The notes under the pieces: model-generated | The model's database searches: none | The model's input: only the letters and a program-made list of their open reading frames with translations | What the model was told of the DNA's origin: nothing | In this document: in pieces, positions 9,754 to 38,148 of the stretch | Numbering within the stretch: the stretch's first letter is position 1 | Layout of the letters: the number at the start of each line of letters is the position of its first letter | Assembly: GCA_043812495.1 (NCBI GenBank) | Contig: JBDRMG010000008.1 | Location: forward strand, 1,516 to 65,515 | Direction of reading: 5' to 3' | Source: Candidatus Omnitrophota bacterium | Lineage (GTDB): Bacteria > Omnitrophota > Gorgyraeia > Zapsychrales > JBDRMG01 | DNA: 64,000 bases | Program-made: the position numbers and the translations under genes

Positions 9754-9945
9754 TTCTTCTTCGCTCAAATGTTTCGTCTCCCTTCGGTCGACTGCACGTT
9801 TGAGCTTCGAAGAATAAATTCTGCCGAAGAAGAATGCTCTACGAAGCCAAACGCGAAGGACCCCGATGATATATCGGGGACGAAGCATTTTGGCGTAGTA
9901 GAGCACTATTCCTTTTCAATTCTTTCCATAAGACATAGTTACTTT

Positions 9946-23663: not shown

Positions 23664-24670
23664 ATAAAACCGAGAAGAAAATATGCGTGACGGGTGGGGC
23701 AGGTTTTATCGGCAGCCATTTGGTCGAACGATTGATCTTATCGAATCATCATGTCATTGTGGTCGATAACTTTTCAACAGGTCGTTATGAGAATTTACCA
23801 TTTCGGAAAAACTGTAAAAACCTATCAATCATCAATGCGGATGTGGCAGATCCTGACAAAATGATTAATTGTTTTAAGGGTGTAGAAATTGTTTTTCATT
23901 GCGCGGCGTTGGCCGATATTGTTCCTTCGATCGTTCATCCCGATCGTTATTACCGGTCCAACGTGACCGGGACTTTTTGCGTGGCTGAGGCCGCGAGAAA
24001 GGCGCAAGTCAAGAAATTTATTTATACAGCCAGCTCCTCTTGCTATGGGATCGCAACAAATTTACCGACGAAAGAGAGTGATCCGATCGATCCTCAATAT
24101 CCTTATGCGCTAACCAAATATTTGGGCGAGCAAATTACATTTCATTGGGGAAAGGTCTATGGACTGCCGGTTGTTTCTTTACGGCTTTTTAATGTGTACG
24201 GTCCGCGTTCGCGAACCTCCGGAACCTATGGCGCTGTGTCCGGAGTTTTTCTGGCTCAGAAACTGGCCGGAAAGCCCTATACGGTCGTGGGGGACGGAAC
24301 ACAAACGAGAGACTTTATCTATGTCTCTGATGTCGTCGAAGCATTTCTTGCGGCCGCTTTTTCTGATATCAAAAATGAAATTTTCAATGTTGGCTGCGGA
24401 AATCCTCAAAGCGTTAATACGCTTGTATCGCTTTTGGGCGGAGAGAAAGTCCATATTCCCAAACGGCCGGGTGAGCCTGATTGCACGTGGGCCGATATCG
24501 CTAAAATTAAAAATAAGCTGGATTGGCAACCCAAAATTTCTTTTGAGGAAGGTATCGGGAATATTCTTCAGCATATTCAGGATTGGCGCAGTGCTCCGGT
24601 TTGGACGCCGGAGAAAATCGAAGAAGCCACCAAAGATTGGTTTACATACCTAGCAAAGGAAAAGCCATGA
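23660..24670 (+). CDS. NAD-dependent sugar-nucleotide epimerase/dehydratase (SDR family)
   Basis: GGAGFIGSHL Rossmann motif. YxxxK (YALTKYLGE). ATGA overlap with the upstream stop. Confidence 0.8.
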   Translation: MNKTEKKICVTGGAGFIGSHLVERLILSNHHVIVVDNFSTGRYENLPFRKNCKNLSIINADVADPDKMINCFKGVEIVFHCAALADIVPSIVHPDRYYRSNVTGTFCVAEAARKAQVKKFIYTASSSCYGIATNLPTKESDPIDPQYPYALTKYLGEQITFHWGKVYGLPVVSLRLFNVYGPRSRTSGTYGAVSGVFLAQKLAGKPYTVVGDGTQTRDFIYVSDVVEAFLAAAFSDIKNEIFNVGCGNPQSVNTLVSLLGGEKVHIPKRPGEPDCTWADIAKIKNKLDWQPKISFEEGIGNILQHIQDWRSAPVWTPEKIEEATKDWFTYLAKEKP

Positions 24671-26202
24671 ATAAAGATGTCTTAAAAAAGATTAAAAAAA
24701 TTCAGCAGCTGGCGGATATCGTCGCCCATTGCAAACGGCAAGGCAAGAAAGTTGTTCACTGTCATGGGGTGTTTGATCTCTTGCACCCTGGGCACTTAAA
24801 ACATTTTGAGTCCGCCAAGAAAAAAGGCGATGTATTGGTTGTCACCGTGACGCCGGATGAGCATGTCAACCGGGGGCCGGGACGGCCGATTTTTAATCAG
24901 GATCTGCGCGCCGAAAGCATTGCCCATCTGGCCTGTGTCGATTTTGTGGCGATTAATGAATGGCCTACAGCGGTTGAGGCCATCAAAACCATACGGCCCG
25001 ATTTTTATATTAAGGGCAGCGAATACGCGATCAAAGAAGATGACGTCACGGGGAAAATCTTTGATGAAGAGGAAGCCGTCAAAAAAGTCGGCGGGCAATT
25101 GGATTTTACCGATGATATCACGTTCAGCTCCACATCGATTATCAATGATCTTTTGGCTCCCTATCCGGAGGAAGCCCAGGATTTCCTCAAAAGTCTAAAA
25201 AAACGCTACAGTACCGAAGATATTATACGTTATTTGCAGGGTGTTCGATCAGTTAAAGTGCTTGTGATCGGTGATGTGATTATCGACGAATATCATTATT
25301 GCGTCGGCATGGCCAAGACACAGAAAGACAATATCATCGCGACTCGTTTTATTTCAGCCGAACAGTTTGCCGGCGGCGTCTTGGCGGCGGCCAATCATAT
25401 TGCCGGTTTTTGTAAAGACGTAACGCTTTTAAGCTGTATCGGGACAGGGGAGAATTACCAACCCTTTATTACCGATCGCCTGAAACCCAACATACAGACA
25501 AAGTTTTATCAACGCAAAGATGCCCCGACGGTCGTTAAACGCCGTTTTGTAGATAAGAATTTCTTAACAAAACTTTTTGAAATATGTTATTTGGACGATC
25601 TGACGATGCTGCCCACTTCTGTAGAAAATAAAATCTGCGATTATCTTCGCAAGAATCTCAAGAAATTCGACATGGTTCTTGTGGCGGATTTTGGCCACGG
25701 AATGATCACGCCTAAGATCATTAAAATTTTATGCGAAAAGGCAAAGTTTTTAGCTCTCAATGTCCAGACCAATAGCTCCAATATCGGGTTTAATCTTGTG
25801 CCGAAATTTCCTCGTGCCGATTATATCTGTATTGATGAACCTGAATTGCGCTTTGCCTGCCATGACCGGTTTTCCAAACCGGAAGATTTGGTTCTGAAGA
25901 TCACAAAAAAAATGAAATGCGATCACATGATCATTACACGGGGACACCGGGGCGCGCTGACGTATTCCAAGAAAAAAGGATTTTCGCAGATCCCTGTTTT
26001 TTCAAAAGAAGTCATCGACCGCATTGGGGCCGGAGACGCTTTTTTCTCGATTACTTCGCCATGTATTTTTAAGGGTGTGCCTACAGAGGTTGTGGGCGTT
26101 ATCGGAAATGCGGTAGGAGCCATGAAAGTTCTTATCGTGGGTAATCGGGCCAGCGTTGAACCGGCCCCGTTACTCAAATACATAGGGACATTATTGAAAT
26201 GA
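24666..26202 (+). CDS. Bifunctional heptose 1-phosphate adenylyltransferase (N-terminal) / PfkB-family heptose 7-phosphate kinase (C-terminal), HldE-like with swapped domain order
   Basis: N-terminal HxGH nucleotidyltransferase motif (VVHCHGVFDLLHPGHLKHF). C-terminal ribokinase-like domain with DRIGAGDAF. Start ATG 24666 overlaps the epimerase stop. Confidence 0.7.
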
Positions 26203-26768
26203 ATTATTTTAAAGAGCTCATCGATTTATGTCAGCATATTACGATCAATGATCAGAAGGGGAGGCCCTTGTTGATCGAAAAGGCCTTTGACAGAACAGTC
26301 CAGATGATTATGGACCACAAAAATAAAGGCAAAGTTTTTTTGATAGGAAACGGCGGCAGCGCGGCCATTGCCAGCCACACCATGACGGATTTTATCCGTA
26401 ATGCGAAGATTCCGGCCATGGCTTTTAATGACGCCGCTCTTTTGACATGCATGTCCAATGATTATGGATACGAAAAGGTTTACGAAAAGCCCATTGAAGT
26501 TGTCGTCAAAAGAGGAGACGTGCTGATTGCGATCAGTAGCTCGGGAAAATCGAAAAATATTATCCGGGCCGTCAGAGCCGCACAGAAGAATAAGGCGCGC
26601 GTTATTACTCTTTCGGGGTTCAACCGGAACAACTATTTGAGCAAGCTCGGGGAAATCAACTTCTACGTTCCTTCCAGCTCTTACGGGTTCGTCGAGTCCA
26701 TACACTTTCTCATCTGCCACTGCATTGTTGATACTTTGATAGCGAAAAAGAAAAGAAAAAATGGATAA
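26199..26768 (+). CDS. gmhA: Phosphoheptose isomerase (SIS domain)
   Basis: LIGNGGSAAIASHTMTDF and AISSSGKSKNI SIS motifs. Confidence 0.8.
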   Translation: MNYFKELIDLCQHITINDQKGRPLLIEKAFDRTVQMIMDHKNKGKVFLIGNGGSAAIASHTMTDFIRNAKIPAMAFNDAALLTCMSNDYGYEKVYEKPIEVVVKRGDVLIAISSSGKSKNIIRAVRAAQKNKARVITLSGFNRNNYLSKLGEINFYVPSSSYGFVESIHFLICHCIVDTLIAKKKRKNG

Positions 26769-27828
26769 GTTCAGAATCGACAGCCATAAGCTCACGTATC
26801 ATGTCCAGCGCGTCCATGATTGGTTGAATGGAAAAAACATTTATCCGGTGTATATAGAAATCAGCCCTACGGGCGCGTGCAACCACCGCTGTATTTTCTG
26901 CGGTTTAGACTTTATGGAATACAAAGCCCGGTCGCTTGATACGGCCCTATTGAAAGAACGTTTAAAAGAATTGGGCGAACTTGGCGTCAAAAGCATCATG
27001 TACGCCGGCGAAGGTGAGCCTTTCTTGCATCGAGACATCGTCGAGATCATTCAGCATACGAAAAATTCCGGAATAGATGTCGCGGTCACAACCAACGGCG
27101 TTTTATTTTCAAAAGAAAAAGCCGAAAACTCACTTGGGTATATGGAATGGATTAAGATCGGCATCGATGCCGGAACTAAAGAAACCTACGCGAAAATTCA
27201 TCGATGCCGAGAACAAGACTTCGATCGCCTCATTGAAAATATGAAAGAGGCTGTCCGGATTAAACGCAAAAGCGGTTACTCTTGCGCGATCGGCGCTCAG
27301 GCTTTGCTTTTACCCGACAATCAAAAGGAGATGGTGGGTCTCGCCAAGCTTATCAAAGATATTGGATTAGACTATCTTGTCGTCAAACCCTATTCTCAGC
27401 ATCCGCAGAGCAAAACCAAACAATATAGTGAGATTAAATATGACGACTATGGCGGGCTCGAAGAACAATTATCTCAGCTTAAGTCGGACAAGTTTCAAGT
27501 GATCGTGCGTATCCATACCATGAGAAAATGGGATGATAAGAAAAAAGAATATGAATGCTGTCTCGCACTTCCGTTTTGGTCGTATATTGATGCGGGGGGA
27601 AATGTCTGGGGCTGCAGCGTATATTTAGGGGATGAACGCTTCTTTTACGGCAATATCAATGAGCAGTCTTTTAAAGAAATATGGGAATCACAAAAACGTG
27701 TTGATTCACTACGCTTTGTTCAAGAGAAGCTCAACGCCTCAACGTGCCGAGTGAATTGCCGCATGGATGAAGTGAATCGTTATTTGTGGGAGCTAAAAAA
27801 CCCTCCCGACCATGTGAATTTTATATAA
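26761..27828 (+). CDS. Radical SAM enzyme with C-terminal Cys-rich auxiliary-cluster (SPASM/twitch-like) domain; paralog of 34473-35771
   Basis: CNHRCIFC (Cx3Cx2C). C-terminal Cys pairs (ECCLALP...GCSVY...STCRVNCRMD). Shared terminal motif KNPPDHVNFI. Confidence 0.75.
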   Translation: MDKFRIDSHKLTYHVQRVHDWLNGKNIYPVYIEISPTGACNHRCIFCGLDFMEYKARSLDTALLKERLKELGELGVKSIMYAGEGEPFLHRDIVEIIQHTKNSGIDVAVTTNGVLFSKEKAENSLGYMEWIKIGIDAGTKETYAKIHRCREQDFDRLIENMKEAVRIKRKSGYSCAIGAQALLLPDNQKEMVGLAKLIKDIGLDYLVVKPYSQHPQSKTKQYSEIKYDDYGGLEEQLSQLKSDKFQVIVRIHTMRKWDDKKKEYECCLALPFWSYIDAGGNVWGCSVYLGDERFFYGNINEQSFKEIWESQKRVDSLRFVQEKLNASTCRVNCRMDEVNRYLWELKNPPDHVNFI

Positions 27829-28024: not shown

Positions 28025-28543
28025 TTGGAGGAAAAAATGAAGAGAGCTGTCATTATTACAGCCACAAATTTTCAGGATGAGGAATTTACCTATCCGTATT
28101 ATCGATTACTGGAAGAGGGTTTTGCGGTTGATGTGGCCACGCCGGATAAAGCGCCGGTTTGCGGCAAATACGGCGTCCCGGCCCGACCCAACAAAGATAC
28201 AAAAGAATTGAAGGTCTCCGATTACGATCTTGTCATTCTTCCCGGCGGATTTGAAGCTCCGGATCGCCTGCGTATTCGTCCGGAAGTTTTGGCCTTCGTC
28301 AAAGAGATGTTTGAGACCAAAAAGATTGTGGCGGCCATCTGCCACGGACCCTGGATTTGTATTTCCGCGGGAATCCTCAAAGGGAAGAAGGCAACGGGGT
28401 ATATGTCCATCGCCGATGATATCAAAAATGCCGGCGCGACTTATATGGAAGAGGATGTTGTGATTGACGGAAATCTGATTACATCTCCGCACTATCGCAA
28501 TAACGGCGATTTTATGAAAGCCGTTCTCAAAACCATCAAATAA
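28025..28543 (+). CDS. DJ-1/PfpI-family protein (class I glutamine amidotransferase-like fold)
   Basis: Nucleophile elbow AAICHGPW. Confidence 0.8.
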   Translation: MEEKMKRAVIITATNFQDEEFTYPYYRLLEEGFAVDVATPDKAPVCGKYGVPARPNKDTKELKVSDYDLVILPGGFEAPDRLRIRPEVLAFVKEMFETKKIVAAICHGPWICISAGILKGKKATGYMSIADDIKNAGATYMEEDVVIDGNLITSPHYRNNGDFMKAVLKTIK

Positions 28544-28546
28544 ATG

Positions 28547-28700
28547 AGCCCCAAGGGAATTTCTATCGATGGGGCTCACCCTGAGCAAGCCCAAAGGGCG
28601 AGCCGAAGGGTCTCTTACTAGGGATCCTTCGACTCCGCTCCGACTAGGGTCGGAGCTTCGCTCAGGATTTCGGGGTCGAAACACCACGACCCCTCAAATA
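28547..28700 (+). other. GC-rich multi-hairpin intergenic segment (candidate structured leader or ncRNA)
   Basis: Nested stems: GAGCCCC/GGGGCTC; CCTGAGCAAGC/GCTTCGCTCAGG; CCGAC-tag-GGTCGG; GGGGTCG/CGACCCC. Local GC is much higher than in the flanks. Confidence 0.4.
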
Positions 28701-28701
28701 A

Positions 28702-31380
28702 ATGATCTATTTGTTATCTAATAAAGGGACGAAAACAAAGTACCAAGCCAAGAAGCGCAAGGTCAAGGATTCGCGCGTTGATGCGTTCGACGACACCCAA
28801 ATCCCGCCCTTTAGGGCGGGGAAACGGGCGCCGCTCAGCATCAACCCTGAGCAAATCCCGGCCTTTAGGCCGGGGTGCGTCGAACGGGTTGATTACTCCA
28901 AGGTGATTGTCAAAAAACCCTGGGGCTATGAGTATTTGGTTTTTCAAAATGATTATGTGGCGATATGGATGCTGCAAATTATTCCGCAGCGTCGAACATC
29001 CATGCACTGCCACCCAGCCAAAAAGACCGGCCTCATTGTGTTATCCGGAAAAGCCAAACTCCATCATGTGGACGGCGCCCTTGAGCTCGACACCCTAGAT
29101 GGCGTCATGATCGACCCCGGAGTATTTCATTGCACCGAGGCCTTCAATCCTTATCCTTTAACACCTCAATCGGAAAACGGGATCTGGGTTATGGAAATTG
29201 AATCACCACCCATGAAAAGCGATTTGATCCGCCTGGACGATGCTTATGGCCGCAAAAATGAATCCTACGAAGGCCAAAAACATATGGTGCATGAACCGGC
29301 CAAGCGGCTTGAGTTTTCTGTTCCATCAAAGACAAAAATTAGCCATAAGAAATTTTTTAATTGTGATTTCAGTATTCGCCAAGGGTCCTTTAAGACAGAG
29401 CGTCCGCGCGACCATGCCCTTATTTCTGTGATCGGGAAAAATGCACGCGCCAAAAGCAATAATCCTTACTTAAAAATCGGCGCTTTAACAACATTCAAGG
29501 AGTTTGAGAATAAGACACGCCAGGAGGATTTAGGTTCTTATACTTTTCTTGTGATCGAAAGAAAAGAGCAGGTGATGAAGGTTGCGGATTATGTTTTTTC
29601 ATCCATCGCCGAGCTTGGCATCAAACAGGTTTTTGCTGTTTCAGGCGGGGGCGCGATGCATCTTGTGGATTCGCTCGGCCGCCATCCCAAATTGGAATAT
29701 ATTGCAACCTATCATGAGCAAGCGGCCGCGATGGCGGCTGAAGCTTACGCTCGCCTGTCTGATACACCAGGGGCTGCACTTGTGACATCAGGCCCCGGCG
29801 GAACAAATACCATCACCGGTGTTTGTGGGGCGTGGATTGATTCGATCCCTACGATTTTTATCTCGGGGCAGGTGACAACAGATACGCTTTTGCGGAAAAT
29901 GGGCCTGCGTCAATTCGGCATCCAGGAGGCGGATATTGTCAGTCTTGTAAAGCCAATCACAAAATATGCCGTAACGGTGACCGATCCAAAAACAATTAAA
30001 TATCATGTGCAAAAAGCTATTCATCTGGCGACGAGCGGCCGGCCCGGTCCGGTGTGGTTAGATATTCCGCTTGATGTGCAAAGTAAACTCCTTAACATTG
30101 ATGAACTGAAATCCTTTACGCCAAAGAAAGACACGCTGTCTTTGCAAGGCAAACAACTCAAAAAAGAAACCGCCAAAGCGCTGGCCCTTTTGAAAAAAGC
30201 CAAGCGGCCCGTTCTTATTAGCGGCTACGGTGTCCGCCTGGCTAAGGCAACAAATGAATTTCAAAAGCTTTTGACATTACTCAATATTCCCCTTGTGTCA
30301 TCGTGGACGTCGAGCGATCTTGTAGATACAAAACATCGGCTTTATGTGGGTCGAGGCGGCATTATGGGTGAGAGAGCCGCGAATTTTGCCGTGCAGAATG
30401 CCGATGTGCTTTTGATTATTGGCTCAAGGATGTCCATTCCTCAAGTAGGCTATAATTATCGCGCCTTTGCCCGCGAAGCCAAAAAGATTGTTGTGGATAT
30501 CGACAGTGTTGAATTAAAAAAGAAATCTCTGAAACCCGATCTTGCGATTCGTACCGATGCCAAAGATTTTATTGCGGAGTTAACACGTCAGTTTCAAAGT
30601 ACGCGCGTAAAACTTGGAAACAACCAATGGCGCGCAAAATGCCAAGGATGGAAAAAACGCTATCCGGTCGTTTTACCGGAGTATCGACAAAATAAAAAAG
30701 GTGTGAACTCATTTTATTTTATCGATGTCCTTTCGAAAAAATTAAAAAAGGACGCCATTGTGGTCACCGACATGGGAACAAGTTTTACCTGCACCATGCA
30801 GACCTTTAAGGTGAAAAAGGGCCAGCGTCTTTTTACCTCAAGCGGACACGCCTCCATGGGATTCGGACTTCCCGGGGCGATCGGGGCTTGCTTCGGCAGC
30901 GGTCGAAAAAAGGTCATTTGCGTGAGCGGAGACGGCGGTTTACAGATGAATATTCAGGAATTACAAACCCTTATTCATTATCGCCTGCCCGTCATTTTAT
31001 TCGTCTTGAACAACCAAGGATATCTGACGATCAAGCTGATGCAGCAAAATCATTTTGGGCGATATGTGGGTTCGGATGCCGGAAGCGGTGTGAGTTTTCC
31101 TGATATCGTCAAAGTGGCGCGGGCCTATGGTATCCGTGCGACAAAGATCAGTAATCAAAAACAATTACGCGGAAAGATCGACAGAATATTGGCCGAACGC
31201 GGACCGTTTGTCTGCGAAATTGTTATGCCCGAAGATCAACCGTTGATTCCAAGGGTCTCATCGCTCAAGAAACCAGACGGCACGATTATCTCACGGCCCC
31301 TGGAGGATCTCTACCCGTTTTTGAGCCGCGAAGAATTTGCGAAAAATATGATAGTCAAACCTTTTGAACCACTCAAATGA
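28702..31380 (+). CDS. Fusion protein: N-terminal cupin domain and C-terminal thiamine-diphosphate-dependent enzyme (acetolactate-synthase/YerE-like fold)
   Basis: Cupin core (WGYEYLVF...MHCHP...GLIVLSGKAKL). TPP-enzyme N-terminal domain (VFAVSGGGAMHLVDSL). TPP-binding GDGG...NN motif (VSGDGGLQMNIQELQT...VLNNQGY). The real start is probably near 28880, not 28702. Confidence 0.7.
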   Translation: MIYLLSNKGTKTKYQAKKRKVKDSRVDAFDDTQIPPFRAGKRAPLSINPEQIPAFRPGCVERVDYSKVIVKKPWGYEYLVFQNDYVAIWMLQIIPQRRTSMHCHPAKKTGLIVLSGKAKLHHVDGALELDTLDGVMIDPGVFHCTEAFNPYPLTPQSENGIWVMEIESPPMKSDLIRLDDAYGRKNESYEGQKHMVHEPAKRLEFSVPSKTKISHKKFFNCDFSIRQGSFKTERPRDHALISVIGKNARAKSNNPYLKIGALTTFKEFENKTRQEDLGSYTFLVIERKEQVMKVADYVFSSIAELGIKQVFAVSGGGAMHLVDSLGRHPKLEYIATYHEQAAAMAAEAYARLSDTPGAALVTSGPGGTNTITGVCGAWIDSIPTIFISGQVTTDTLLRKMGLRQFGIQEADIVSLVKPITKYAVTVTDPKTIKYHVQKAIHLATSGRPGPVWLDIPLDVQSKLLNIDELKSFTPKKDTLSLQGKQLKKETAKALALLKKAKRPVLISGYGVRLAKATNEFQKLLTLLNIPLVSSWTSSDLVDTKHRLYVGRGGIMGERAANFAVQNADVLLIIGSRMSIPQVGYNYRAFAREAKKIVVDIDSVELKKKSLKPDLAIRTDAKDFIAELTRQFQSTRVKLGNNQWRAKCQGWKKRYPVVLPEYRQNKKGVNSFYFIDVLSKKLKKDAIVVTDMGTSFTCTMQTFKVKKGQRLFTSSGHASMGFGLPGAIGACFGSGRKKVICVSGDGGLQMNIQELQTLIHYRLPVILFVLNNQGYLTIKLMQQNHFGRYVGSDAGSGVSFPDIVKVARAYGIRATKISNQKQLRGKIDRILAERGPFVCEIVMPEDQPLIPRVSSLKKPDGTIISRPLEDLYPFLSREEFAKNMIVKPFEPLK
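28797..28875 (+). repeat. Two tandem 24 nt hairpin repeats CAAATCCCG(C/G)CCTTTAGG(G/C)CGGGG separated by 30 nt, upstream of the cupin domain
   Basis: Read directly. They lie inside the annotated 5' extension of the 28702 ORF and are probably leader sequence rather than coding. Confidence 0.6.
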
Positions 31381-32945
31381 GACACTCTATGAAATATAAG
31401 AAACGAAAATTCGATAGTGTTTGTTTGGTGATGAACTTAAAGTCGGACCAGGTCGCGATTGCCAAAGAAGATATTGCGTCCGGCAGCATTCTTATTCATG
31501 AGGGCCGGACCGTCAAAATAAAAAAAGATATTAAAAAGGGCCATCGCTTGGCTATGAAAGAAATTCCCAAAGGAGAGTATGTACGGCAATACGGCCATCC
31601 TTTTGGATGCTCCAAGGGTATTCAAAGCGGAGAGCCCATTACGATTGCGAATATCAAAAACGTTTTGCCGAGACAAAATCTAAAGGATTTTAAGAAACCC
31701 GCACAAACACGATACCAAAAGGATCTTGTGAAAAAGGCCTTTGCGGGGTATGTAAGAAAAAACGGTGCGGTTGGAACACGCAATTATTATTTGATTGTTC
31801 CCACGTCAATGTGCGCGAGTGAAACAGCGCTTCAAGTGGCGCTCACGTTACAGGCGGATAAGCGAATTTCAAAAAAGCATTCCTCGTTTGACGGAATTGT
31901 GGCGATTCCTCATACAGAAGGGTGCGGGTGCGATTCAGGGTTGTCGATCGAGAGGCTCCTGCGTGTTCTCAAAACTTATATCGCGCATCCCAATGTCGGC
32001 GGTTGTCTCATCATGGATTTGGGATGCGAGCAGACCAATTATGAAAAGGTTCACCCTTACCTTAAAAAACTTGTTAGCCAAAAGATCAAGCCGATTGATT
32101 GGGTCAGTATTGAGGAGTCCGGCGGGATTACGGCCGCGCGAAAAAAAGCCGAAACGCTTATTCGAAAACGTCTCCCCCAGGTTATACGACAAAAGCGCCA
32201 GGCGTGTTCTCTCGGAAAATTAATTGTCGGAACCGAATGCGGCGCCTCCGATACGTTTTCCGGAATCACGGCCAATCCCCTGATTGGGTATGCGGTCGAT
32301 CAAATCATATACGCCAAAGGCTCAGCCATTCTCTCGGAGATTCCGGAAATGGTGGGAACGTTTGACATGTTATGGCCGCGCTTTCGCAGCCTGAAAGCGG
32401 CGCGTAAATTTCAGAAGATCATGAGTTGGTATGTGACATTGGCCAAAAAGCTGGGAACAACACTTGAGGCCAATTTGGTCCCCAAAAATGTCGAAGTAGG
32501 GCTCATCAATAATTATATCAAAAGTTTGGGAGCCGTGATCAAAGGAGGCACAACGGTTATAGAAGATGTTCTTGAGTATGCAGAACCCCTAACGAAACGA
32601 GGCCTTCATATTATGCAAGGTCCGGGCAATGACCTTGAATCCGTTACGGGAATCGTTGCTTCGGGGGCTAACCTCGTATGTTTCTCGACCGGCCAAGGGA
32701 CACCGACCGGTAGCGCGATTTGTCCTGTCATCAAAATTGCATCGACGAATTCTATTTTTAAAAAACTTTCCAAGGATATTGATTTCAATGCAGGTCAATT
32801 GCTTCAAACAAAACCAAATTTGGAAACTTTAGGGTGCGAGTTGCTTTCTTTGATGATTAAAGTCGCCTCCGGTCAGAAGACATGCAGTGAAAAATTAGGA
32901 CAACGACAATTTCAAATATGGACAGCCGGCAAGTTGCCGCTGTAA
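31377..32945 (+). CDS. SAF-domain sugar-acid dehydratase family protein (UxaA/GarD-like)
   Basis: N-terminal SAF-like beta-clip (DQVAIAKEDIASGSIL...GHRLAMKEI). C-terminal dehydratase-like domain. The exact substrate cannot be assigned. Confidence 0.55.
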   Translation: MRHSMKYKKRKFDSVCLVMNLKSDQVAIAKEDIASGSILIHEGRTVKIKKDIKKGHRLAMKEIPKGEYVRQYGHPFGCSKGIQSGEPITIANIKNVLPRQNLKDFKKPAQTRYQKDLVKKAFAGYVRKNGAVGTRNYYLIVPTSMCASETALQVALTLQADKRISKKHSSFDGIVAIPHTEGCGCDSGLSIERLLRVLKTYIAHPNVGGCLIMDLGCEQTNYEKVHPYLKKLVSQKIKPIDWVSIEESGGITAARKKAETLIRKRLPQVIRQKRQACSLGKLIVGTECGASDTFSGITANPLIGYAVDQIIYAKGSAILSEIPEMVGTFDMLWPRFRSLKAARKFQKIMSWYVTLAKKLGTTLEANLVPKNVEVGLINNYIKSLGAVIKGGTTVIEDVLEYAEPLTKRGLHIMQGPGNDLESVTGIVASGANLVCFSTGQGTPTGSAICPVIKIASTNSIFKKLSKDIDFNAGQLLQTKPNLETLGCELLSLMIKVASGQKTCSEKLGQRQFQIWTAGKLPL

Positions 32946-33047: not shown

Positions 33048-34457
33048 ATGAAAATATTGTTCACGAACTCACCTTTACATTTCAGCCACGGACATACGTT
33101 TACTCAACCGGATTGGCAAACCCTCGTCTTGCCGCTTTTAGCGGCGATTGCCGGTGATGAACATGAAATCAAACTTTTTGATAACAACGCATTATTTTTT
33201 GAATCCAACAGAATTCTCTGTGAAATAAAAGAGATGTGTCCTGATGTTGTCGGATTTAGTATCATTGCGGCCAGAGATGTATTCAATACCCTCCAAATCA
33301 TCCAAGAGGTTCGCAAAGAGTATCCAGAATTAAAACTCATTGCAGGCGGACAAGCCGCAACATTTTACGGTCGATTGTTGCTTGAGAGCGGAATTGATTT
33401 TGTAGTTCACGGTGAAGGAGAGATAACGCTCAAAGAACTCATTGGGGCCATTTCTGAGAATGCGCCTGATTATTCAGGGATCCAGGGGATTTCTTATTGT
33501 CGTGAAGGAAATGTTTATAAGACCGCGGATCGTTCCAAGATCAAAAATCTTGATGATTCTCCTTTTCCGGCTATCCATCTGATGCCGCTTCGAAAGTCAA
33601 AATGGTTTCCCGGACGCTTTACCGGTTCAATTGAGACATCACGTGGGTGTCCGTTTGATTGCAATTTTTGCGCCATTACGTCCTTTTGGGACAGAACGTT
33701 CCGCGAAAAATCAAATGAGCGCATTCTCGATGAGATGAAATTTCTTGTTGAAAGCGGACGGTCTCATTTTTATATGGCGGATGATAACTTCGGGATGAAC
33801 ATCAAAAAGCATATTGATCTCTTTGAAAGGATTTTGAAAGAGGGCCTCGATATCCGATTCTTTGCGCAGATGAGAACCGATACTATCGGCCTGCATCCCG
33901 ACATGGTTTCGATCGCGGCCCGGGCAGGGCTATATGGTGCGTTAATCGGTTTTGACACCTATGATCCGGAGACATTTCACCATGTGACAAAAGCAGGAAG
34001 CGTTGAATTAAATATACAGTGCGCAGAGGTGATGAGGAAAAACAAGATCATGATTTTTGGTTCGCATATTTACGGTCTTCCGACGCAGAAAAAACCGCTC
34101 GATTTTGCAAAGACATTTTGGATGGGGCGCAGAAACTCAGATTTGTTTCGCATGCCGCGATTTTCTTTGCTTCCCGGAACAAAAGCGTATGGTCAGATGA
34201 TCACTCAAGAGATGATTGACAGCAAAACCGGCAGCGGAGATTTTAGGTTATTTATTCGACCCGCAAAAGAACAAAAGAAATTTCAGCGCTGGTATGCGCT
34301 CTTTAATTTCCTGAATATATTCCTTCCGGATGAGATTCTCAAAGCCTTTTTTCATCCGAATCGCAATATCAGAAAAATAAAACAGTATGGATATATCAGC
34401 ATTGTGCGGCATAATTTTTATCGGATGTTAAGAACGCTGTGTTTATGCGATATTTAA
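33048..34457 (+). CDS. Cobalamin-binding radical SAM protein (class B, COG1032-like)
   Basis: N-terminal B12-binding Rossmann-like segment. SRGCPFDCNFCAI Cx3Cx2C motif. Confidence 0.75.
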   Translation: MKILFTNSPLHFSHGHTFTQPDWQTLVLPLLAAIAGDEHEIKLFDNNALFFESNRILCEIKEMCPDVVGFSIIAARDVFNTLQIIQEVRKEYPELKLIAGGQAATFYGRLLLESGIDFVVHGEGEITLKELIGAISENAPDYSGIQGISYCREGNVYKTADRSKIKNLDDSPFPAIHLMPLRKSKWFPGRFTGSIETSRGCPFDCNFCAITSFWDRTFREKSNERILDEMKFLVESGRSHFYMADDNFGMNIKKHIDLFERILKEGLDIRFFAQMRTDTIGLHPDMVSIAARAGLYGALIGFDTYDPETFHHVTKAGSVELNIQCAEVMRKNKIMIFGSHIYGLPTQKKPLDFAKTFWMGRRNSDLFRMPRFSLLPGTKAYGQMITQEMIDSKTGSGDFRLFIRPAKEQKKFQRWYALFNFLNIFLPDEILKAFFHPNRNIRKIKQYGYISIVRHNFYRMLRTLCLCDI

Positions 34458-34472
34458 TAAACGGAGAAATCA

Positions 34473-35771
34473 ATGGCACAAAAGAAATCAAAAGCCCCTA
34501 CGCATAAAAAGGGAAAGATCGTCAAAATTCCTCAAAAGATGAAAACCCTCAAGCACGGCGGGCATGTTCTTCGTACAGGCAAACAAATTGTTGACCGCGC
34601 CAAGCTTAATCAAATCAAAGCTAAGTCGAAAACAAGCGCCAAGCAGCCCAACCAATATACGGGCCATACATTTCTCAATAAACCTTTACGATTCCGTTTG
34701 GACAGCCATAAGTTGTTGCATCATCTGGATCGGGTGCTCGCCTGGCAGCGTGGCGAACGGATTACTCCGATCCATATCGACATGGGATTGACAAAATTCT
34801 GTAACGTCGGTTGCATATACTGTATCGGCGTTACGCAGATTATGACTAAAGGAGAGCTGATCGCACGTGAGGCTTTGCTTCGATTAATCGATGATTGCGC
34901 GCGCCTTGGGGTGCGCAGCCTTGCCTTTATCGGCGACGGTGAGCCAACGCTGAACCCCGCTATGTATGATGCCGTTGTGCGCGCAAAGAGTTTAGGGATC
35001 GATGTCGGCATGGCCACCAATGGCATTCTCATCAAAATGGACCGTGCGCACGATCTTTTACGCGATTTGACGTTCTTGCGGATTAATTTAAGCGCGGCTG
35101 AACCCAAGAGTTTTGAAAGAATTCATCAAGCGCCGGGCCGGCAGCTCGACCTTCTGATGGACAAGCTAAAGGCCATGGTGAAAATACGCAAAGAAAACGG
35201 ATACACCTGCACTCTTGGGATTCAGATGGTCTTAATACCGGAAAATTTTGATCAGATCATTAAGCTCACCGAGCTCGGCCGGGACATCGGTGTTGATTAT
35301 TTTCAGATTAAACAATGCTCCGATACGGAATATAAAGAAATCGGCGTTGATTACGGCCAATATCGTAAGGCCGAAAAAGATCTTAAAAGAGCCGAACAGC
35401 TAAGCACAGACAGTTATTTTGTTCAGGTCAAATGGAACAAAATTAACATTGCAGGTGAGACAAATGTGTATAAAGGCGGAATACGCAAATACGATATCTG
35501 CTATGGCACGCCGTTTCTCGGTCAAATCAGCGGGAACGGAAAAGTTTATCCATGTGGCCCATTTTTCTCAAAGGAACGTTTCTTAATGGGCGATATTCAC
35601 AAACAGTCTTATTATGATATCGTCAAAAGCGATCGCTATTGGCAAGTGCACCAGGATATCATCGACAACGTTGACGTTCACTGCGACTGCACCGTGGGAT
35701 GCCGGCAGGACTATATCAATAAATTTTTGTGGGATATTAAAAATCCTCCACAACATGTCAATTTCATTTAG
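34473..35771 (+). CDS. Radical SAM enzyme with C-terminal auxiliary-cluster domain and Lys-rich N-terminal extension; paralog of 26761-27828
   Basis: CNVGCIYC. C-terminal CDCTVGC. Shared motifs DSHKL.HH..RV..W and KNPPQHVNFI. Confidence 0.75.
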   Translation: MAQKKSKAPTHKKGKIVKIPQKMKTLKHGGHVLRTGKQIVDRAKLNQIKAKSKTSAKQPNQYTGHTFLNKPLRFRLDSHKLLHHLDRVLAWQRGERITPIHIDMGLTKFCNVGCIYCIGVTQIMTKGELIAREALLRLIDDCARLGVRSLAFIGDGEPTLNPAMYDAVVRAKSLGIDVGMATNGILIKMDRAHDLLRDLTFLRINLSAAEPKSFERIHQAPGRQLDLLMDKLKAMVKIRKENGYTCTLGIQMVLIPENFDQIIKLTELGRDIGVDYFQIKQCSDTEYKEIGVDYGQYRKAEKDLKRAEQLSTDSYFVQVKWNKINIAGETNVYKGGIRKYDICYGTPFLGQISGNGKVYPCGPFFSKERFLMGDIHKQSYYDIVKSDRYWQVHQDIIDNVDVHCDCTVGCRQDYINKFLWDIKNPPQHVNFI

Positions 35772-35780
35772 CGCACAATA

Positions 35781-37361
35781 ATGGTTTACCGGAACCTAGA
35801 TAATATCCAAACCACAGTTCGCACACCAAAAGTTCTTCTTTTAAATCCACCTGACGATGAGCATTCCTATAAGTTGTTTCGTGCATCGTTTCCGCTAGGA
35901 TTATGTTACCTGGGTACCTATCTTAAAAAAGAGAAATATCAGGTAAAGATTGTTGATGCGAAGGTAGGAAACATTAAGAGAGTCCCATTAGAAAAAGAAG
36001 GAATGGTTAGGGTTGGACTTTCCTTAAATGAGATAGAAAATATTATTAATGATTTTTCACCAGATGTTCTTGGCCTTTCCTGTATTTTTCACACAAATTT
36101 TAATCCTACTTTAGATATCGCGAAATTGGCAAAAACCAAATGCCATATTCCTTATGTTGTAGCAGGAGGGAGCTATGCCTCGGTGGTTCCAAAGAAGATC
36201 ATGGAGTCTCCCTATATTGATTATTTAGTTCTTGGAGAAGGGGAGGTAACATTTGAGAAATTATTACAAAAGTTGTTTAATCCCACAGGCAATCAAGAGT
36301 TGGGCGATTTAGATGGAGTCGTATTGAGGGATAACGACGGCAAAGTTTGTGTAAAAAATAGGACTGAATACATCTCTTCAGATGAGTTTTTTACCCCCAA
36401 TAGAGATTTTCTCCCAGTTGAAAAGTATATAAAGTTTCGAAGCCCTCACAATATCTTATCCCGAGGGCATCGGGCGTTAGAAGTTATCACTTCACGAGGG
36501 TGTAATGCGCGTTGCACATTTTGTTCAGCCCCGTTGTTATGGGGTAAATTCAGAATGAGAAGCGTAAAGGGTATTATCGATGAATTGAAATTTCTCAAAG
36601 AGAAGTACCATATTGATGAGGTTCAGTTCATTGATGATAATCTGACCTTCGATAAAAAAAGAGCGGAAGATCTCTTCCAGCGTATGATAGATGACAAATT
36701 GAACCTTAAGTGGTGCGCTCCCAATGGCATTGCGATACATACTCTCGATGAAAATTTGATACGCTTAATGAAAGAAAGCGGCTGTTATTTGGTTACATTG
36801 GCCATTGAAAGTGGGAGTCAACGCGTACTGACTGAATTAATAAAGAAGCCTTTGTTGTTGGAGAAGGTACACGCAACAGTTAAGCTGTTAAAGAAATACA
36901 AGCTCGCCGCAGAAGCTTTCTTTGTTATCGGAATGCCAGGGGAGACATTTGAAGAGATTAAAAAAACATTTGATCTTGCATTTAAGCTGGGTATATTCAG
37001 GGCACACTTCAGCTATATTACTCCTATTCCGTCGACACCAGTTTACAAGACATATCTAGAACTGAAAAGGCATAATGCATCTGATAGCAGCACTACTGAT
37101 CTTATTGATGAAAGCTGTTTCGATTTTAGATTTCCTGCGATATCAACGAAAGAATGGACTAACAAGCAGCTTAAAAGATATACTTCTATTCTGTCATTTA
37201 AATTTTATTTGAAATTCTTAATTTTAAAACCGCATATTTTTATTAAAGAAGTCAGCCTTATTATTAGCCGTCCAAAGCTCCTTTTGGGATTAATGGTTAT
37301 TTTTAAGGATGTTATTTTAGGAAATCTATTATCTAAAGAAAAGGTCACTGTCAATGAATAA
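35781..37361 (+). CDS. Cobalamin-binding radical SAM protein (class B)
   Basis: B12-binding N-terminal domain. SRGCNARCTFCSA motif. Confidence 0.75.
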   Translation: MVYRNLDNIQTTVRTPKVLLLNPPDDEHSYKLFRASFPLGLCYLGTYLKKEKYQVKIVDAKVGNIKRVPLEKEGMVRVGLSLNEIENIINDFSPDVLGLSCIFHTNFNPTLDIAKLAKTKCHIPYVVAGGSYASVVPKKIMESPYIDYLVLGEGEVTFEKLLQKLFNPTGNQELGDLDGVVLRDNDGKVCVKNRTEYISSDEFFTPNRDFLPVEKYIKFRSPHNILSRGHRALEVITSRGCNARCTFCSAPLLWGKFRMRSVKGIIDELKFLKEKYHIDEVQFIDDNLTFDKKRAEDLFQRMIDDKLNLKWCAPNGIAIHTLDENLIRLMKESGCYLVTLAIESGSQRVLTELIKKPLLLEKVHATVKLLKKYKLAAEAFFVIGMPGETFEEIKKTFDLAFKLGIFRAHFSYITPIPSTPVYKTYLELKRHNASDSSTTDLIDESCFDFRFPAISTKEWTNKQLKRYTSILSFKFYLKFLILKPHIFIKEVSLIISRPKLLLGLMVIFKDVILGNLLSKEKVTVNE

Positions 37362-38148
37362 TACAAACATAAAAGTTTCCGTCATTACGCCAGCTTTGAA
37401 TGAAGAAAAGAATATTAGATTTACGATTGATCGCATTCTGGATGTTTTTGAAAGATGCAATATTTCTGGTGAGATCATTGTCGTCAATGATGGCAGTACG
37501 GATAGGACAGAGGAGCTGGTGGAGGATTTTATCCAAAGCGACTCCCGGGTCAAGGTACTCAAACACGAAACACCGCAAGGCATGGGGGCCTCCTTCTGGG
37601 ATGGCTTCGACCATGCTAAGGGTGAAATCATTGTCGTGATTCCCGGCGATAACGAGAATGATCCGTGGGAAATCCTGCGGTATTACTCTTTGTTAGAGCA
37701 TGTCGATATCGTTATTCCCTTTATTTTTAATCGTGAAGTGAGGCCTTTTTTGCGCAACATCCTTTCTTTGCTTTTTCGCTTGATTATCAATTCAACTTTT
37801 GTTGTCAATTTTAATTACACGAATGGGACAATACTTTACCGGAAGGATATTATTCAGGATGTAAAGTATCGAAGCAGCAGCTTTTTCTTTCAGACAGACA
37901 TTTTGATACGACTTGTTAAAAAAGGATATTTATTTGCCGAAGTTCCCTTTCGTTTAGACATCAGAGAGCAAGGCCGCTCAAAGGCTGTTTCTTTTCCTTC
38001 TCTGTTGCAGGTGATGAAGGGGTATTTTCGCTTAATCCGCGATCTTTATTTTGCCAAAGAAAGTAAGATTAAGGTACGTTTCTCACAAAAATCTGCAACA
38101 GCCAAAAGGCGACAAAATAATTTGATCCAACAGAATCGTAATCAATGA
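37354..38148 (+). CDS. Family 2 glycosyltransferase
   Basis: VSVITPALNEEKNI...VVNDGSTDRTEEL...D-x-D-like GDNEND region. Confidence 0.8.
   Translation: MNNTNIKVSVITPALNEEKNIRFTIDRILDVFERCNISGEIIVVNDGSTDRTEELVEDFIQSDSRVKVLKHETPQGMGASFWDGFDHAKGEIIVVIPGDNENDPWEILRYYSLLEHVDIVIPFIFNREVRPFLRNILSLLFRLIINSTFVVNFNYTNGTILYRKDIIQDVKYRSSSFFFQTDILIRLVKKGYLFAEVPFRLDIREQGRSKAVSFPSLLQVMKGYFRLIRDLYFAKESKIKVRFSQKSATAKRRQNNLIQQNRNQ

What the first reader, a model, noticed from the sequence alone, without database searches (positions are those of the whole stretch)
28702..31380. Cupin-TPP enzyme fusion, a candidate branched-chain sugar synthase
Seen directly: one continuous ORF with no internal stop joins a sugar-isomerase-type cupin to an acetolactate-synthase-fold TPP enzyme with an intact GDGG...NN motif. 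From established knowledge, YerE-type TPP enzymes attach two-carbon branches to 4-keto sugar nucleotides, and RmlC/FdtA-type cupins epimerise or isomerise those intermediates. A covalent fusion of the two is unusual. It could instead be a fusion artefact if a stop was lost.
Basis: partly seen in the sequence, partly recalled or inferred. Interest (0 to 1): 0.5.

Follow-up and report, generated by a model that had tools for sequence, protein, structure and literature searches.

The report
Cupin fused to YerE-like thiamine enzyme
One real 892-residue gene joins an uncharacterised metal-type cupin domain to a complete thiamine-dependent carbon-carbon ligase of the sugar-branching (YerE/JanthE) kind; the fusion is widespread in uncultured bacteria and marks an unstudied three-gene cassette (DJ-1 + cupin + thiamine enzyme) in sugar-modification clusters.

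Summary
Window 28702-31380 (+) is one 892-codon ORF: an N-terminal cupin module (res 63-290) runs without a flexible linker into a complete ThDP enzyme (res 291-892; catalytic Glu and GDG-X24-NN intact).

It is not an artefact. At least 119 other 90%-identity clusters carry the same full-length fusion (61-72% identity), as do 33-34 of 80 species-level genome loci from several phyla. The source is a Candidatus Omnitrophota MAG.

It is not IlvB. It scores below every acetolactate-synthase cut-off, the window has no ilv genes, and the best solved relative is JanthE, a YerE-like enzyme (39% identity, end to end).

The cupin is not RmlC/FdtA-type. It is a PMI/Cupin_2-like barrel with invariant His102/His104/His143 and no curated family model. 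In 78 of 80 loci this cupin is fused or adjacent to a ThDP enzyme, either JanthE-like or E1-type. A DJ-1/PfpI gene lies nearby in 68 of 80.

The window's cluster holds heptose-activation genes, an SDR, five radical-SAM enzymes, a GT2 and a UxaA/GarD-like dehydratase overlapping the fusion's stop codon.

Best reading (inferred): a bifunctional enzyme that isomerises or epimerises a keto-sugar nucleotide and attaches an acyl branch. It is a new variant of a known kind, and biochemically untested.

The parts
28702..31380 (+). Whole fused gene, 892 aa plus stop (P0121; NCBI name 'MAG: thiamine pyrophosphate-dependent enzyme [Candidatus Omnitrophota bacterium]')
28702..28761 (+). N-terminal leader (res 1-20). 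The MI... start is shared with relatives, and res 2-12 model as a beta-strand.
28762..28887 (+). In-frame insertion (res ~21-62), absent from all relatives and modelled as disordered. It carries two 24-nt palindromic repeats (28798-28821 and 28852-28875) and a third hairpin between them.
28888..29283 (+). Cupin barrel plus the conserved ESPP..DLVRL.D.YGR...YE segment (res 63-194). Family-invariant residues are K72 P73 W74 G75 E77, H102, H104, K107, H143, E165, E167, R177, D180, Y189, E190.
29284..29571 (+). Second beta-rich subdomain (res 195-290). It is confidently modelled, variable in sequence and has no structural match. It ends where unfused cupin proteins end.
29575..29913 (+). ThDP enzyme N-terminal (PYR) domain, res 292-404. 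The catalytic Glu E339 is at 29716-29718.
30172..30582 (+). ThDP enzyme central domain, res 491-627. This is the FAD-binding region in JanthE. JanthE P293 and Y297 are conserved as P580 and Y584; JanthE Y268 is M555 here.
30769..31221 (+). ThDP enzyme C-terminal (PP) domain, res 690-840. GDG is at 30928-30936 and NN at 31009-31014, with 24 residues between them.
31222..31377 (+). C-terminal tail (res 841-892; ...PLIPRVSSLKKPDGTIISRPLEDLYPFL...). It aligns with JanthE but falls outside the aligned regions of the AHAS matches. R851 corresponds to the JanthE hotspot K567.
28025..28543 (+). DJ-1/PfpI family protein (172 aa; passes the TIGR01382 cut-off). It is the most constant neighbour of the cupin across 80 loci.
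31377..32945 (+). UxaA/GarD-family (GD_AH) sugar-acid dehydratase homologue. Its ATG overlaps the fusion's stop codon by 4 nt. The same arrangement occurs in L013, L014, L017 and L103.
21801..23663 (+). 620-aa multi-span membrane protein with no family hit. It is conserved at the head of the cluster in L103 (612 aa). It may be a membrane glycosyltransferase; this is inference only.
23660..24670 (+). SDR epimerase/dehydratase (336 aa). It is a candidate for making the keto sugar, but it scores below every equivalog cut-off.
24583..26202 (+). HldE-like bifunctional protein with swapped domain order (nucleotidyltransferase N-terminal, PfkB kinase C-terminal)
26199..26768 (+). GmhA-like SIS sedoheptulose-7-phosphate isomerase homologue
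26761..27828 (+). Radical SAM/SPASM enzyme (355 aa), conserved upstream of DJ-1 in most fused loci
33048..39641 (+). Downstream tailoring genes: B12-radical SAM (33048-34457), radical SAM/SPASM (34473-35771), B12-radical SAM (35781-37361), GT2 resembling polyprenyl-phosphate sugar synthases (37354-38148), and B12-radical SAM (38145-39641)

Best explanation
The gene encodes a bifunctional enzyme of a cell-envelope sugar pathway.

Shown:
- It is a genuine, ancient and widespread fusion of two proteins that in many other genomes are encoded by adjacent genes.
- The first partner is a PMI/Cupin_2-like cupin of an uncharacterised family.
- The second partner is a complete ThDP-dependent carboligase of the YerE/JanthE subclass.
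- The gene lies in a cluster with heptose-activation genes (GmhA-like, HldE-like), an SDR, DJ-1/PfpI, a UxaA/GarD-like dehydratase, five radical-SAM enzymes and a GT2.

Inferred mechanism:
- A heptose nucleotide is oxidised or dehydrated to a keto sugar.
- The cupin domain uses a metal held by His102, His104 and His143. It isomerises or epimerises the keto sugar through an enediolate, or does the same to the alpha-hydroxyketone product.
- The ThDP domain decarboxylates an alpha-keto acid and adds the resulting acyl anion equivalent to the sugar's keto carbon. This gives a C-branched tertiary alcohol.
- In this cluster the alpha-keto acid may be a 2-keto-3-deoxy acid made by the translationally coupled dehydratase; otherwise it is pyruvate.
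- Radical-SAM enzymes then methylate or tailor the sugar, and the GT2 passes it to a lipid carrier.
For: Fusion real and recurrent. Split versions have the cupin stop codon about 10 nt from the TPP start (L009), and split cupins end at the junction. The model shows no flexible linker.

YerE/JanthE affinity: (39% identity over 602 aa, shared tail, GDG-X24-NN, E339). JanthE hotspot residues are largely conserved. JanthE itself sits in a deoxysugar cluster next to donor-forming aldolase genes. According to the literature, YerE-like enzymes take C2-C8 alpha-keto acids and 4-keto sugars (PMC9306805, PMC12247030).

Obligate cupin-ThDP partnership: 78 of 80 loci, with two different ThDP superfamilies.

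Sugar-nucleotide context: here and in relatives.

Donor idea: the dehydratase gene overlaps the fusion here and directly follows it in L013, L014, L017 and L103. An enolase-superfamily gene (MR_MLE, a superfamily that includes acid-sugar dehydratases by general knowledge) occupies the Nitrospinaceae cluster instead.

Cupin chemistry: the structural neighbours include sugar isomerases (PMI, D-lyxose isomerase), the CapF cupin and alpha-keto-acid-binding cupins (KdgF, BacB, AerE).
Against: No biochemistry exists for any member.
- The cupin has no close characterised relative. The best PDB sequence E-value is about 1e-4, so its reaction is a guess. Its classical Glu metal ligand is replaced (K107/K108/T109).
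- Its top fold match is a 3-His cysteine-dioxygenase-like protein, which leaves oxygenase-type chemistry formally open.
- Characterised YerE, ErwE and JanthE clusters need neither a cupin nor DJ-1.
- The dehydratase is present in only 12 of 80 loci, so it is not part of the core cassette.
- The SDR is below all equivalog cut-offs, so the 4-keto intermediate is assumed rather than shown.
- This window lacks the HAD phosphatase that relatives have.
- JanthE's FAD-stabilising Y268 is Met here.
Confidence: 0.55

Rival explanations
1. Same fused enzyme, but working on free (non-nucleotide) sugar acids and aldehydes. The ThDP domain decarboxylates a 2-keto-3-deoxy acid from the adjacent dehydratase and ligates it to an aldehyde, extending the chain into a higher-carbon ketose or acyloin. 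The cupin then acts as an aldose-ketose (acyloin) isomerase, the reaction PMI-like cupins are known for. DJ-1 handles alpha-oxoaldehyde intermediates.
For: The cupin's only sequence affinity is to PMI-type cupins. Its structural neighbours include free-sugar isomerases and KdgF. The dehydratase family acts on free sugar acids in its characterised members (names; general knowledge). DJ-1/PfpI is a glyoxalase/deglycase family. YerE-like enzymes also ligate onto aldehydes in vitro.
Against: The cassette is nearly always embedded among nucleotide-sugar genes: nucleotidyltransferases, 4,6-dehydratase-like SDRs, glycosyltransferases and flippases. The dehydratase is absent from most loci. The closest characterised relatives act on NDP-keto sugars physiologically.
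Confidence: 0.2
2. The cupin module is not catalytic. It is a structural or regulatory appendage of the ThDP enzyme, for example an oligomerisation or effector-binding domain that plays the part the small subunit plays for AHAS.
For: There is no flexible linker. In a second fused clade the ThDP motif of the fused domain is degenerate and a second intact ThDP gene follows. This shows that members of this family can act as non-catalytic partners.
Against: About 24 positions are invariant across 103 cupins, including a His-x-His...His set at canonical cupin metal positions. The cupin also pairs with an unrelated ThDP scaffold (E1 type), which argues for shared chemistry rather than a shared docking surface.
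Confidence: 0.12
3. The C-terminal part is an ordinary biosynthetic acetolactate synthase (IlvB) for branched-chain amino acids.
For: The top NCBIfam names are acetolactate synthase large subunit, and databases label relatives that way.
Against: Every acetolactate-synthase score is below its cut-off, for example TIGR00118 at 414 against 538. The window has no ilvN/H, ilvC or ilvD. JanthE scores about 200 bits above any AHAS. The context is conserved sugar and radical-SAM genes.
Confidence: 0.02
4. The fusion is an assembly or sequencing artefact, such as a lost stop codon between two genes.
For: The source is a MAG. Split versions exist in other genomes with only a few nucleotides between the genes.
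Against: More than 119 independent full-length fused clusters come from NCBI, JGI, ENA and Logan assemblies. Sixteen of the top 150 clusters at 50% identity are fused, as are 43-44 of 80 species genomes. The alignment is continuous across the junction.
Confidence: 0.01

Closest known systems
JanthE (Janthinobacterium sp. HH01; PDB 8rph/8rpi/8rpj), a YerE-like ThDP carboligase
   Same: 39% identity over 602 residues, end to end. It has the same three domains and the same C-terminal tail. Hotspot residues are conserved or conservatively replaced: P293 as P580, Y297 as Y584, V121 as I407, K567 as R851. It lies in a sugar-nucleotide gene cluster.
   Different: JanthE is a stand-alone 610-aa protein with CDG instead of GDG (PMC12188165). 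Its locus has a DegT/E1-like 3-dehydrase and an aldolase plus acetaldehyde-dehydrogenase pair, but no cupin, DJ-1 or radical-SAM genes. JanthE Y268 (FAD contact) is Met here.
YerE (Yersinia pseudotuberculosis, yersiniose A) and ErwE (Pectobacterium, erwiniose)
   Same: Same enzyme subclass by the literature (PMC12247030, PMC9306805). The logic of the neighbourhood is also the same: genes that make a keto sugar, a ThDP enzyme, and (for ErwE and JanthE) a neighbouring enzyme that makes the alpha-keto acid donor.
   Different: Neither carries a fused or adjacent cupin or a DJ-1 partner in the descriptions I could read. Their acceptor is a CDP-3,6-dideoxy-4-keto-hexose made with E1/E3, whereas here the precursor genes are heptose-type. 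The donor-forming enzyme here would be a dehydratase rather than an aldolase. I had no YerE or ErwE sequences to compare directly.
CapF (Staphylococcus aureus capsule; PDB 2zkl/3st7/4yrd), an SDR-cupin fusion
   Different: The partner domain is an SDR reductase, not a ThDP enzyme, and the cupin is C-terminal. There is no detectable sequence relationship. The second beta subdomain of the present module is absent.
Two-subunit E1-type (alpha-KADH2) ThDP enzymes that branch antibiotic deoxysugars
   Same: Fourteen of 80 loci pair the same cupin and DJ-1 with an E1alpha/E1beta-type ThDP enzyme, and in two of them the cupin is fused to it. The review lists this superfamily as the other one that C-branches sugars.
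   Different: It is a different ThDP scaffold from the one in this window. No cupin partner is described for the antibiotic systems in the texts I could read.
Biosynthetic acetohydroxyacid synthase (IlvB/IlvI/IlvG)
   Same: Same ThDP fold and cofactor motifs, and about 265 bits of similarity.
   Different: It scores below all curated cut-offs, has no regulatory subunit or ilv neighbours, and carries an extra C-terminal tail and an N-terminal cupin module.

Membership tests
YerE-like (JanthE/YerE/ErwE) ThDP-dependent carboligases | PYR - central - PP three-domain ThDP enzyme of the decarboxylase superfamily | tested here: met
   Pfam TPP_enzyme_N, _M and _C are all far above their cut-offs.
YerE-like (JanthE/YerE/ErwE) ThDP-dependent carboligases | Intact cofactor machinery: catalytic Glu and the GDG-X24-27-NN motif | tested here: met
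   E339 (YHEQ); G743-D744-G745, then 24 residues, then N770-N771.
YerE-like (JanthE/YerE/ErwE) ThDP-dependent carboligases | Closer to a characterised YerE-like enzyme than to AHAS or other ThDP subfamilies | tested here: met
   JanthE scores 466 bits and aligns end to end. 5ahk scores 297 bits. The best AHAS scores about 265 bits. No tree was built, and no YerE or ErwE sequences were available.
YerE-like (JanthE/YerE/ErwE) ThDP-dependent carboligases | Encoded in a nucleotide-sugar (envelope glycan) biosynthesis cluster | tested here: met
   The window has GmhA-like, HldE-like, SDR and GT2 genes. Relatives show the same. JanthE's locus is shown.
YerE-like (JanthE/YerE/ErwE) ThDP-dependent carboligases | Catalyses addition of a decarboxylated alpha-keto acid to a ketone (4-keto sugar), giving a tertiary alcohol | not testable with these tools
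   This needs an enzyme assay.
YerE-like (JanthE/YerE/ErwE) ThDP-dependent carboligases | Structural FAD site (JanthE Y268 and P293) | tested here: inconclusive
   P293 is conserved as P580, but Y268 is replaced by M555 (Met in the family consensus).
Biosynthetic acetolactate synthase large subunit (IlvB/G/I) | Score at or above a curated equivalog cut-off | tested here: not met
   TIGR00118 scores 414.4 against 538.35, and every other acetolactate-synthase model shown is also below its cut-off.
Biosynthetic acetolactate synthase large subunit (IlvB/G/I) | Regulatory small subunit and other ilv genes nearby | tested here: not met
   None was found among the ORFs I scanned, which covered nearly all ORFs of at least 150 aa plus a few shorter ones, across the 64-kb window.
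RmlC / FdtA-type nucleotide-sugar cupins | Sequence membership (PF00908 dTDP_sugar_isom or PF05523 FdtA) | tested here: not met
   No hit at E <= 0.01. A separate PF00908/PF05523 gene coexists with the fusion in L002 and L003.
RmlC / FdtA-type nucleotide-sugar cupins | Nearest structural neighbours are RmlC, FdtA or QdtA | tested here: not met
Cupin_2 / type II PMI-like metal cupins | Double-stranded beta-helix barrel | tested here: met
Cupin_2 / type II PMI-like metal cupins | Pfam or NCBIfam score above the curated cut-off | tested here: not met
   PF01050 scores 21.9 against 23.6; PF07883 scores 19.7 against 27.2; TIGR01479 scores 19 against 373. It is related, but no existing model captures it.
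Cupin_2 / type II PMI-like metal cupins | Canonical metal ligands (HxH...E...H) | tested here: inconclusive
   H102, H104 and H143 are invariant. The motif-1 Glu position is K107/K108/T109 instead. A 3-His site is possible. Metal binding was not tested.

The most novel reading that the evidence does not exclude
DJ-1/PfpI + this cupin + a ThDP enzyme form a previously unrecognised, very widely distributed sugar C-branching cassette. It is found in Omnitrophota, Planctomycetota, Nitrospinota, Proteobacteria, Bacteroidota, CPR bacteria and DPANN or other archaea. In this reading the cupin and DJ-1 carry out new chemistry that characterised YerE, ErwE and JanthE pathways do not need. Examples would be preparing the keto acceptor without the E1/E3 deoxygenation system, or rearranging or trimming the acyloin product. 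The cassette can be built on either of two ThDP scaffolds. A sub-clade with a dead ThDP motif would then act as a pseudo-enzyme partner of a second ThDP protein.
Probability: 0.3. Interest if true: 0.72.

Novelty: new variant of a known kind. Interest (0 to 1): 0.55.

Why it matters
YerE-like ThDP enzymes are valued both as makers of unusual C-branched envelope sugars and as rare biocatalysts that form chiral tertiary alcohols. Only a handful have been characterised, all of them stand-alone proteins.

This gene shows that a large, phylogenetically broad group of them works with a dedicated cupin, and usually also a DJ-1/PfpI protein. The partnership is tight enough that the cupin has been fused to the ThDP enzyme repeatedly, and to two different ThDP scaffolds. 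Databases call these proteins 'acetolactate synthase', which is misleading.

Working out what the cupin and DJ-1 do could reveal a new route to branched or higher-carbon sugars in anaerobes. It could also supply new carboligases with built-in substrate-preparation domains, and explain part of the radical-SAM-rich glycan clusters of Omnitrophota, Planctomycetota and CPR bacteria.

Tried and rejected
- Artefact or lost stop: rejected.
- IlvB with ilv neighbours: rejected after scanning nearly all ORFs of at least 150 aa, plus a few shorter ones.
- RmlC/FdtA identity of the cupin: rejected by sequence and fold ranking.
- A specific family for the cupin: Pfam, NCBIfam, and PDB searches with the sequence and with the profile gave only weak generic cupin/PMI hits.
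- Cupin at the C-terminus of longer TPP relatives (P0264, P0295, P0299): not found.
- JanthE's native locus as a possible home of the cassette: it has no cupin and no DJ-1.
- Rfam for the structured region at 28545-28895: no family. Only a tmRNA and a tRNA were found, elsewhere in the window.
- Promoter and terminator scan around the gene: nothing above chance.
- Literature: no paper links a cupin or DJ-1 with YerE-like enzymes. The two most relevant papers are not held, so I cannot exclude that the fusion was noted there: Krug et al. 2024 (an in-silico survey of more than 200 YerE-like clusters) and Lanza et al. 2024 (JanthE).
- The AFDB fold library was unavailable.
- Model coordinates are not exposed, so I could not measure the distance between the cupin site and the ThDP site.
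- The window's own protein could not be located by the contig look-up.
Full report
**1. The observation**

The ORF listing returns a single ORF, 28702..31380 on the + strand: 892 aa, ATG start, no internal stop. Pfam finds a complete ThDP enzyme: TPP_enzyme_N at 292-404, TPP_enzyme_M at 491-627 and TPP_enzyme_C at 690-840, all with E <= 3e-33. It also finds two weak cupin hits at residues 70-153, MannoseP_isomer at 21.9 bits and Cupin_2 at 19.7 bits, both just under their gathering scores.

The ThDP motif is G743-D744-G745, followed by 24 residues, then N770-N771. The catalytic glutamate is E339.

Two refinements follow.
- Residues 195-290 are a confidently folded beta-rich subdomain rather than a linker, and the full-length model shows no flexible linker (pLDDT 81.8, pTM 0.71).
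- The only disordered part is an N-terminal insertion (about residues 16-60) that no relative has.

**2. Artefact?**

No. A full-length search found the identical protein, P0121, named by NCBI 'MAG: thiamine pyrophosphate-dependent enzyme [Candidatus Omnitrophota bacterium]', on a 76.7-kb contig. The other 119 clusters listed (clustered at 90% identity) are all full-length fusions of 835-866 aa, 61-72% identical and covering 92-100% of the query. They come from NCBI, JGI, ENA and Logan assemblies, and the sources name Omnitrophota, Nitrospirae, Nitrospinaceae and 'bacterium BMS3Abin06'.

An exhaustive HMMER scan of representatives at 50% identity shows that 16 of the best 150 carry the cupin N-terminally, at identities down to 35%. 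The fusion is therefore old and diversified.

A scan of one genome per species, using the cupin alignment as query, found 267 genomes that encode the cupin. The best 80 loci were kept. My tally of those 80 is below.

| Arrangement of the cupin | Loci |
|---|---|
| Same fusion, GDG intact (Omnitrophota; Planctomycetota including Scalindua, Phycisphaerae, Sedimentisphaerales and Pirellulales; Nitrospina; Nitrosomonadaceae; Rhodospirillaceae; Geoanaerobacter; Magnetococcales; Lentisphaerae; Gammaproteobacteria) | 33, plus one truncated |
| Second fused clade: ThDP motif degenerate (CEDRG, CEYRG, CEERG or CEGEG in place of GDGG), followed by a second intact TPP gene | 10 |
| Free-standing 220-270-aa cupin gene directly upstream of a separate JanthE-like TPP gene (many CPR bacteria and Bacteroidota) | 20 |
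| Cupin fused to an E1_dh-type ThDP domain | 2 |
| Cupin with an E1alpha-type gene next to it or close by | 12 |
| No ThDP gene within 10 kb (one of these runs off its contig) | 2 |

Split cupins end exactly where the fused proteins pass into the TPP domain. In L009 the two genes are 10 nt apart. This is a classic Rosetta-stone fusion.

**3. What the ThDP part is**

All NCBIfam acetolactate-synthase models match, but each is below its cut-off; TIGR00118, for example, scores 414 against 538.

Against the PDB, the best hit by far is 8rph, with E 3e-138 and 466 bits. The next is 5ahk at 297 bits, and plant and bacterial AHAS reach about 265 bits. [quoted passage not shown] The alignment with JanthE is end to end, 39% identity over 602 residues. 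It includes a C-terminal tail (...KPDGTIISRPLEDLYPFL...) that lies beyond the aligned region of the AHAS matches. The five JanthE positions singled out by mutagenesis map as V121 to I407, Y268 to M555, P293 to P580, Y297 to Y584 and K567 to R851.

No ilv gene was found among the ORFs I scanned in the 64-kb window.

**4. What the cupin part is**

It belongs to a family with no curated model. Only weak similarity to the cupin domain of type II phosphomannose isomerase is detectable: PF01050, and TIGR01479 at 19 bits. A PDB search with the family profile gives E-values of about 1e-4 at best.

The fold neighbours are generic metal cupins:
- the B. subtilis cysteine-dioxygenase-like protein YubC,
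- SbzM,
- the cupin of CapF,
- Thermococcus PMI,
- D-lyxose isomerase,
- KdgF,
- BacB and AerE.

RmlC and FdtA are absent from the top lists. A genuine RmlC/FdtA-like gene coexists with the fusion in L002 and L003.

Twenty-four positions are invariant across 103 family members, including KPWGxE (72-77), H102, H104, K107, H143, E165, E167, R177, D180, Y189 and E190. The His-x-His...His set sits at the canonical cupin metal positions, while the usual Glu ligand is replaced. A 3-His metal site is plausible but untested.

**5. Context**

The window's cluster, in gene order:

| Coordinates | Product |
|---|---|
| 21801-23663 | multi-span membrane protein |
| 23660-24670 | SDR epimerase/dehydratase |
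| 24583-26202 | HldE-like protein with swapped domain order |
| 26199-26768 | GmhA-like isomerase |
| 26761-27828 | radical SAM/SPASM enzyme |
| 28025-28543 | DJ-1/PfpI |
| 28702-31380 | the fusion |
| 31377-32945 | UxaA/GarD-family dehydratase, overlapping the fusion's stop by 4 nt |
| 33048-34457 | B12-radical SAM |
| 34473-35771 | radical SAM/SPASM |
| 35781-37361 | B12-radical SAM |
| 37354-38148 | GT2 resembling polyprenyl-phosphate sugar synthases |
| 38145-39641 | B12-radical SAM |

The closest relative's locus, L103 (71% identical fusion), has the same order in a more compact form. Other fused loci repeat the run radical SAM/SPASM, HAD, DJ-1, fusion, dehydratase, radical-SAM genes, SDR, methyltransferase. 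A Nitrospinaceae locus has an enolase-superfamily gene in place of the UxaA-type one.

DJ-1 is within the fetched flanks in 68 of 80 loci, usually touching the cupin gene. The dehydratase is present in 12 of 80.

E1-type loci show the same cassette among a 4,6-dehydratase-like SDR, a GHMP kinase, further SDRs and a B12-radical SAM gene.

JanthE's own locus, fetched for comparison, reads nucleotidyltransferase, 4,6-dehydratase, DegT/E1-like protein, JanthE, SDR, acetaldehyde dehydrogenase, HMGL/DmpG aldolase, SDR, GT2. It has no cupin and no DJ-1. That matches the published erwiniose-type logic, in which neighbouring enzymes make the alpha-keto acid donor (PMC9306805).

**6. Mechanism: what is shown and what is inferred**

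Shown:
- The fusion is real and recurrent.
- The ThDP domain is YerE/JanthE-like with intact cofactor motifs.
- The cupin family is essentially always partnered with a ThDP enzyme, of either of two superfamilies, inside nucleotide-sugar clusters.

Inferred:
- The ThDP domain adds an acyl group from an alpha-keto acid to the carbonyl carbon of a keto sugar nucleotide. Here that sugar is probably heptose-derived.
- The cupin catalyses a metal-assisted enediolate reaction (isomerisation or epimerisation) on the acceptor or on the alpha-hydroxyketone product.
- In this cluster the translationally coupled dehydratase may supply a 2-keto-3-deoxy acid donor, by analogy with the aldolase pair in the ErwE and JanthE clusters.

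Because the cupin partners with two different ThDP scaffolds, its role is more likely tied to the shared substrate or product than to a protein-specific regulatory contact.

I give this model 0.55. The main rival is the same enzyme acting on free sugar acids and aldehydes, with the cupin as an acyloin isomerase; I give it 0.2. The role of DJ-1 is unexplained.

**7. Comparison with known systems, and novelty**

The protein works like YerE, ErwE and JanthE, and it passes every membership feature I could test for that subclass. The exceptions are the untestable activity and one FAD-contact residue.

It differs from them in three ways:
- the fused, uncharacterised cupin module,
- the constant DJ-1 partner,
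- the heptose and radical-SAM context.

CapF is the nearest precedent for a metal-type cupin fused to another nucleotide-sugar enzyme. I found no paper that links a cupin or DJ-1 with YerE-like enzymes. However, the 2024 in-silico survey of more than 200 YerE-like clusters could not be read.

Verdict: a new variant of a known kind. It is common in metagenomes, mis-annotated as acetolactate synthase, and biochemically unexplored.

Noticed in passing
window 28545-28895 (repeats at 28798-28821 and 28852-28875): Two 24-nt copies of CAAATCCCG[C/G]CCTTTAGG[G/C]CGGGG lie inside the coding sequence. Each forms a hairpin, and the one difference between them is compensatory. A third hairpin (GCTCAG...CTGAGC) sits between them. 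Together they make an in-frame insertion of about 40 aa that relatives lack and that models as disordered. The 158-nt gap upstream is also packed with hairpins, whereas L103 has a 1-nt gap after its DJ-1 gene. Only 5 exact matches exist in the JGI metagenome collection. Two of them (L099, L101) share a longer composite element in unrelated DNA. It looks like a small REP/MITE-like palindromic element tolerated within a protein's N-terminal loop.
   Followed up: partly
L057, L067, L068, L070, L080, L083, L084, L086, L088, L095 (cupin ORFs of about 850-900 aa): A second clade of cupin-TPP fusions has lost the GDG of the ThDP motif in the fused TPP domain (it reads CEDRG, CEYRG, CEERG or CEGEG). 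A second, separate TPP gene follows directly downstream in each. This may be a pseudo-enzyme partner forming a heteromer with the intact ThDP protein.
   Followed up: partly
L074:5264-6982, L081:8928-10556; also L054, L055, L058, L060, L063-L066, L069, L072, L073, L076: The same cupin family is fused to (2 loci) or encoded beside or near (12 loci) an E1_dh-type ThDP enzyme. In the two loci examined in detail (L073, L069) a transketolase-like beta subunit follows and DJ-1 is adjacent. This is an independent link to a different ThDP superfamily.
   Followed up: partly
window 24583-26202: An HldE-like bifunctional protein has its domain order reversed relative to the HldE model (NF008454): nucleotidyltransferase first, PfkB kinase second. 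The same 507-539-aa architecture recurs in related loci (L001-L003, L017, L103).
   Followed up: no
L001:10001-12583: In one 276-kb ENA contig the fused gene is split into three consecutive ORFs (482, 256 and 92 aa). These are frameshifts, so it is either a pseudogene or an assembly with indel errors.
   Followed up: no
L002, L003, L004 (contig ends): Three contigs from different assemblies all end at the same position inside the fusion gene, after 405 codons. This suggests a recurrent assembly break there, from strain variation or a repeat.
   Followed up: no
L005-L008:6684-7064: In the marine split version, a conserved 126-aa ORF with no family hit sits between the cupin and TPP genes.
   Followed up: no
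P0048: A 327-aa relative of the cupin carries a GNAT acetyltransferase domain (PF00583), so this is another fusion partner for the family.
   Followed up: no
window 8614-9075 and 9354-9756; 7444-7527: An smpB gene lies next to a full-length tmRNA (Rfam, 170 bits), and there is a tRNA on the minus strand. These are ordinary housekeeping features.
   Followed up: no
window 54678-63998: A run of alpha-glucan genes: a GlgE-like maltosyltransferase, a large alpha-amylase-family protein, a GlgB-like branching enzyme, and GH57 with DUF3536. It is unrelated to the finding.
   Followed up: no
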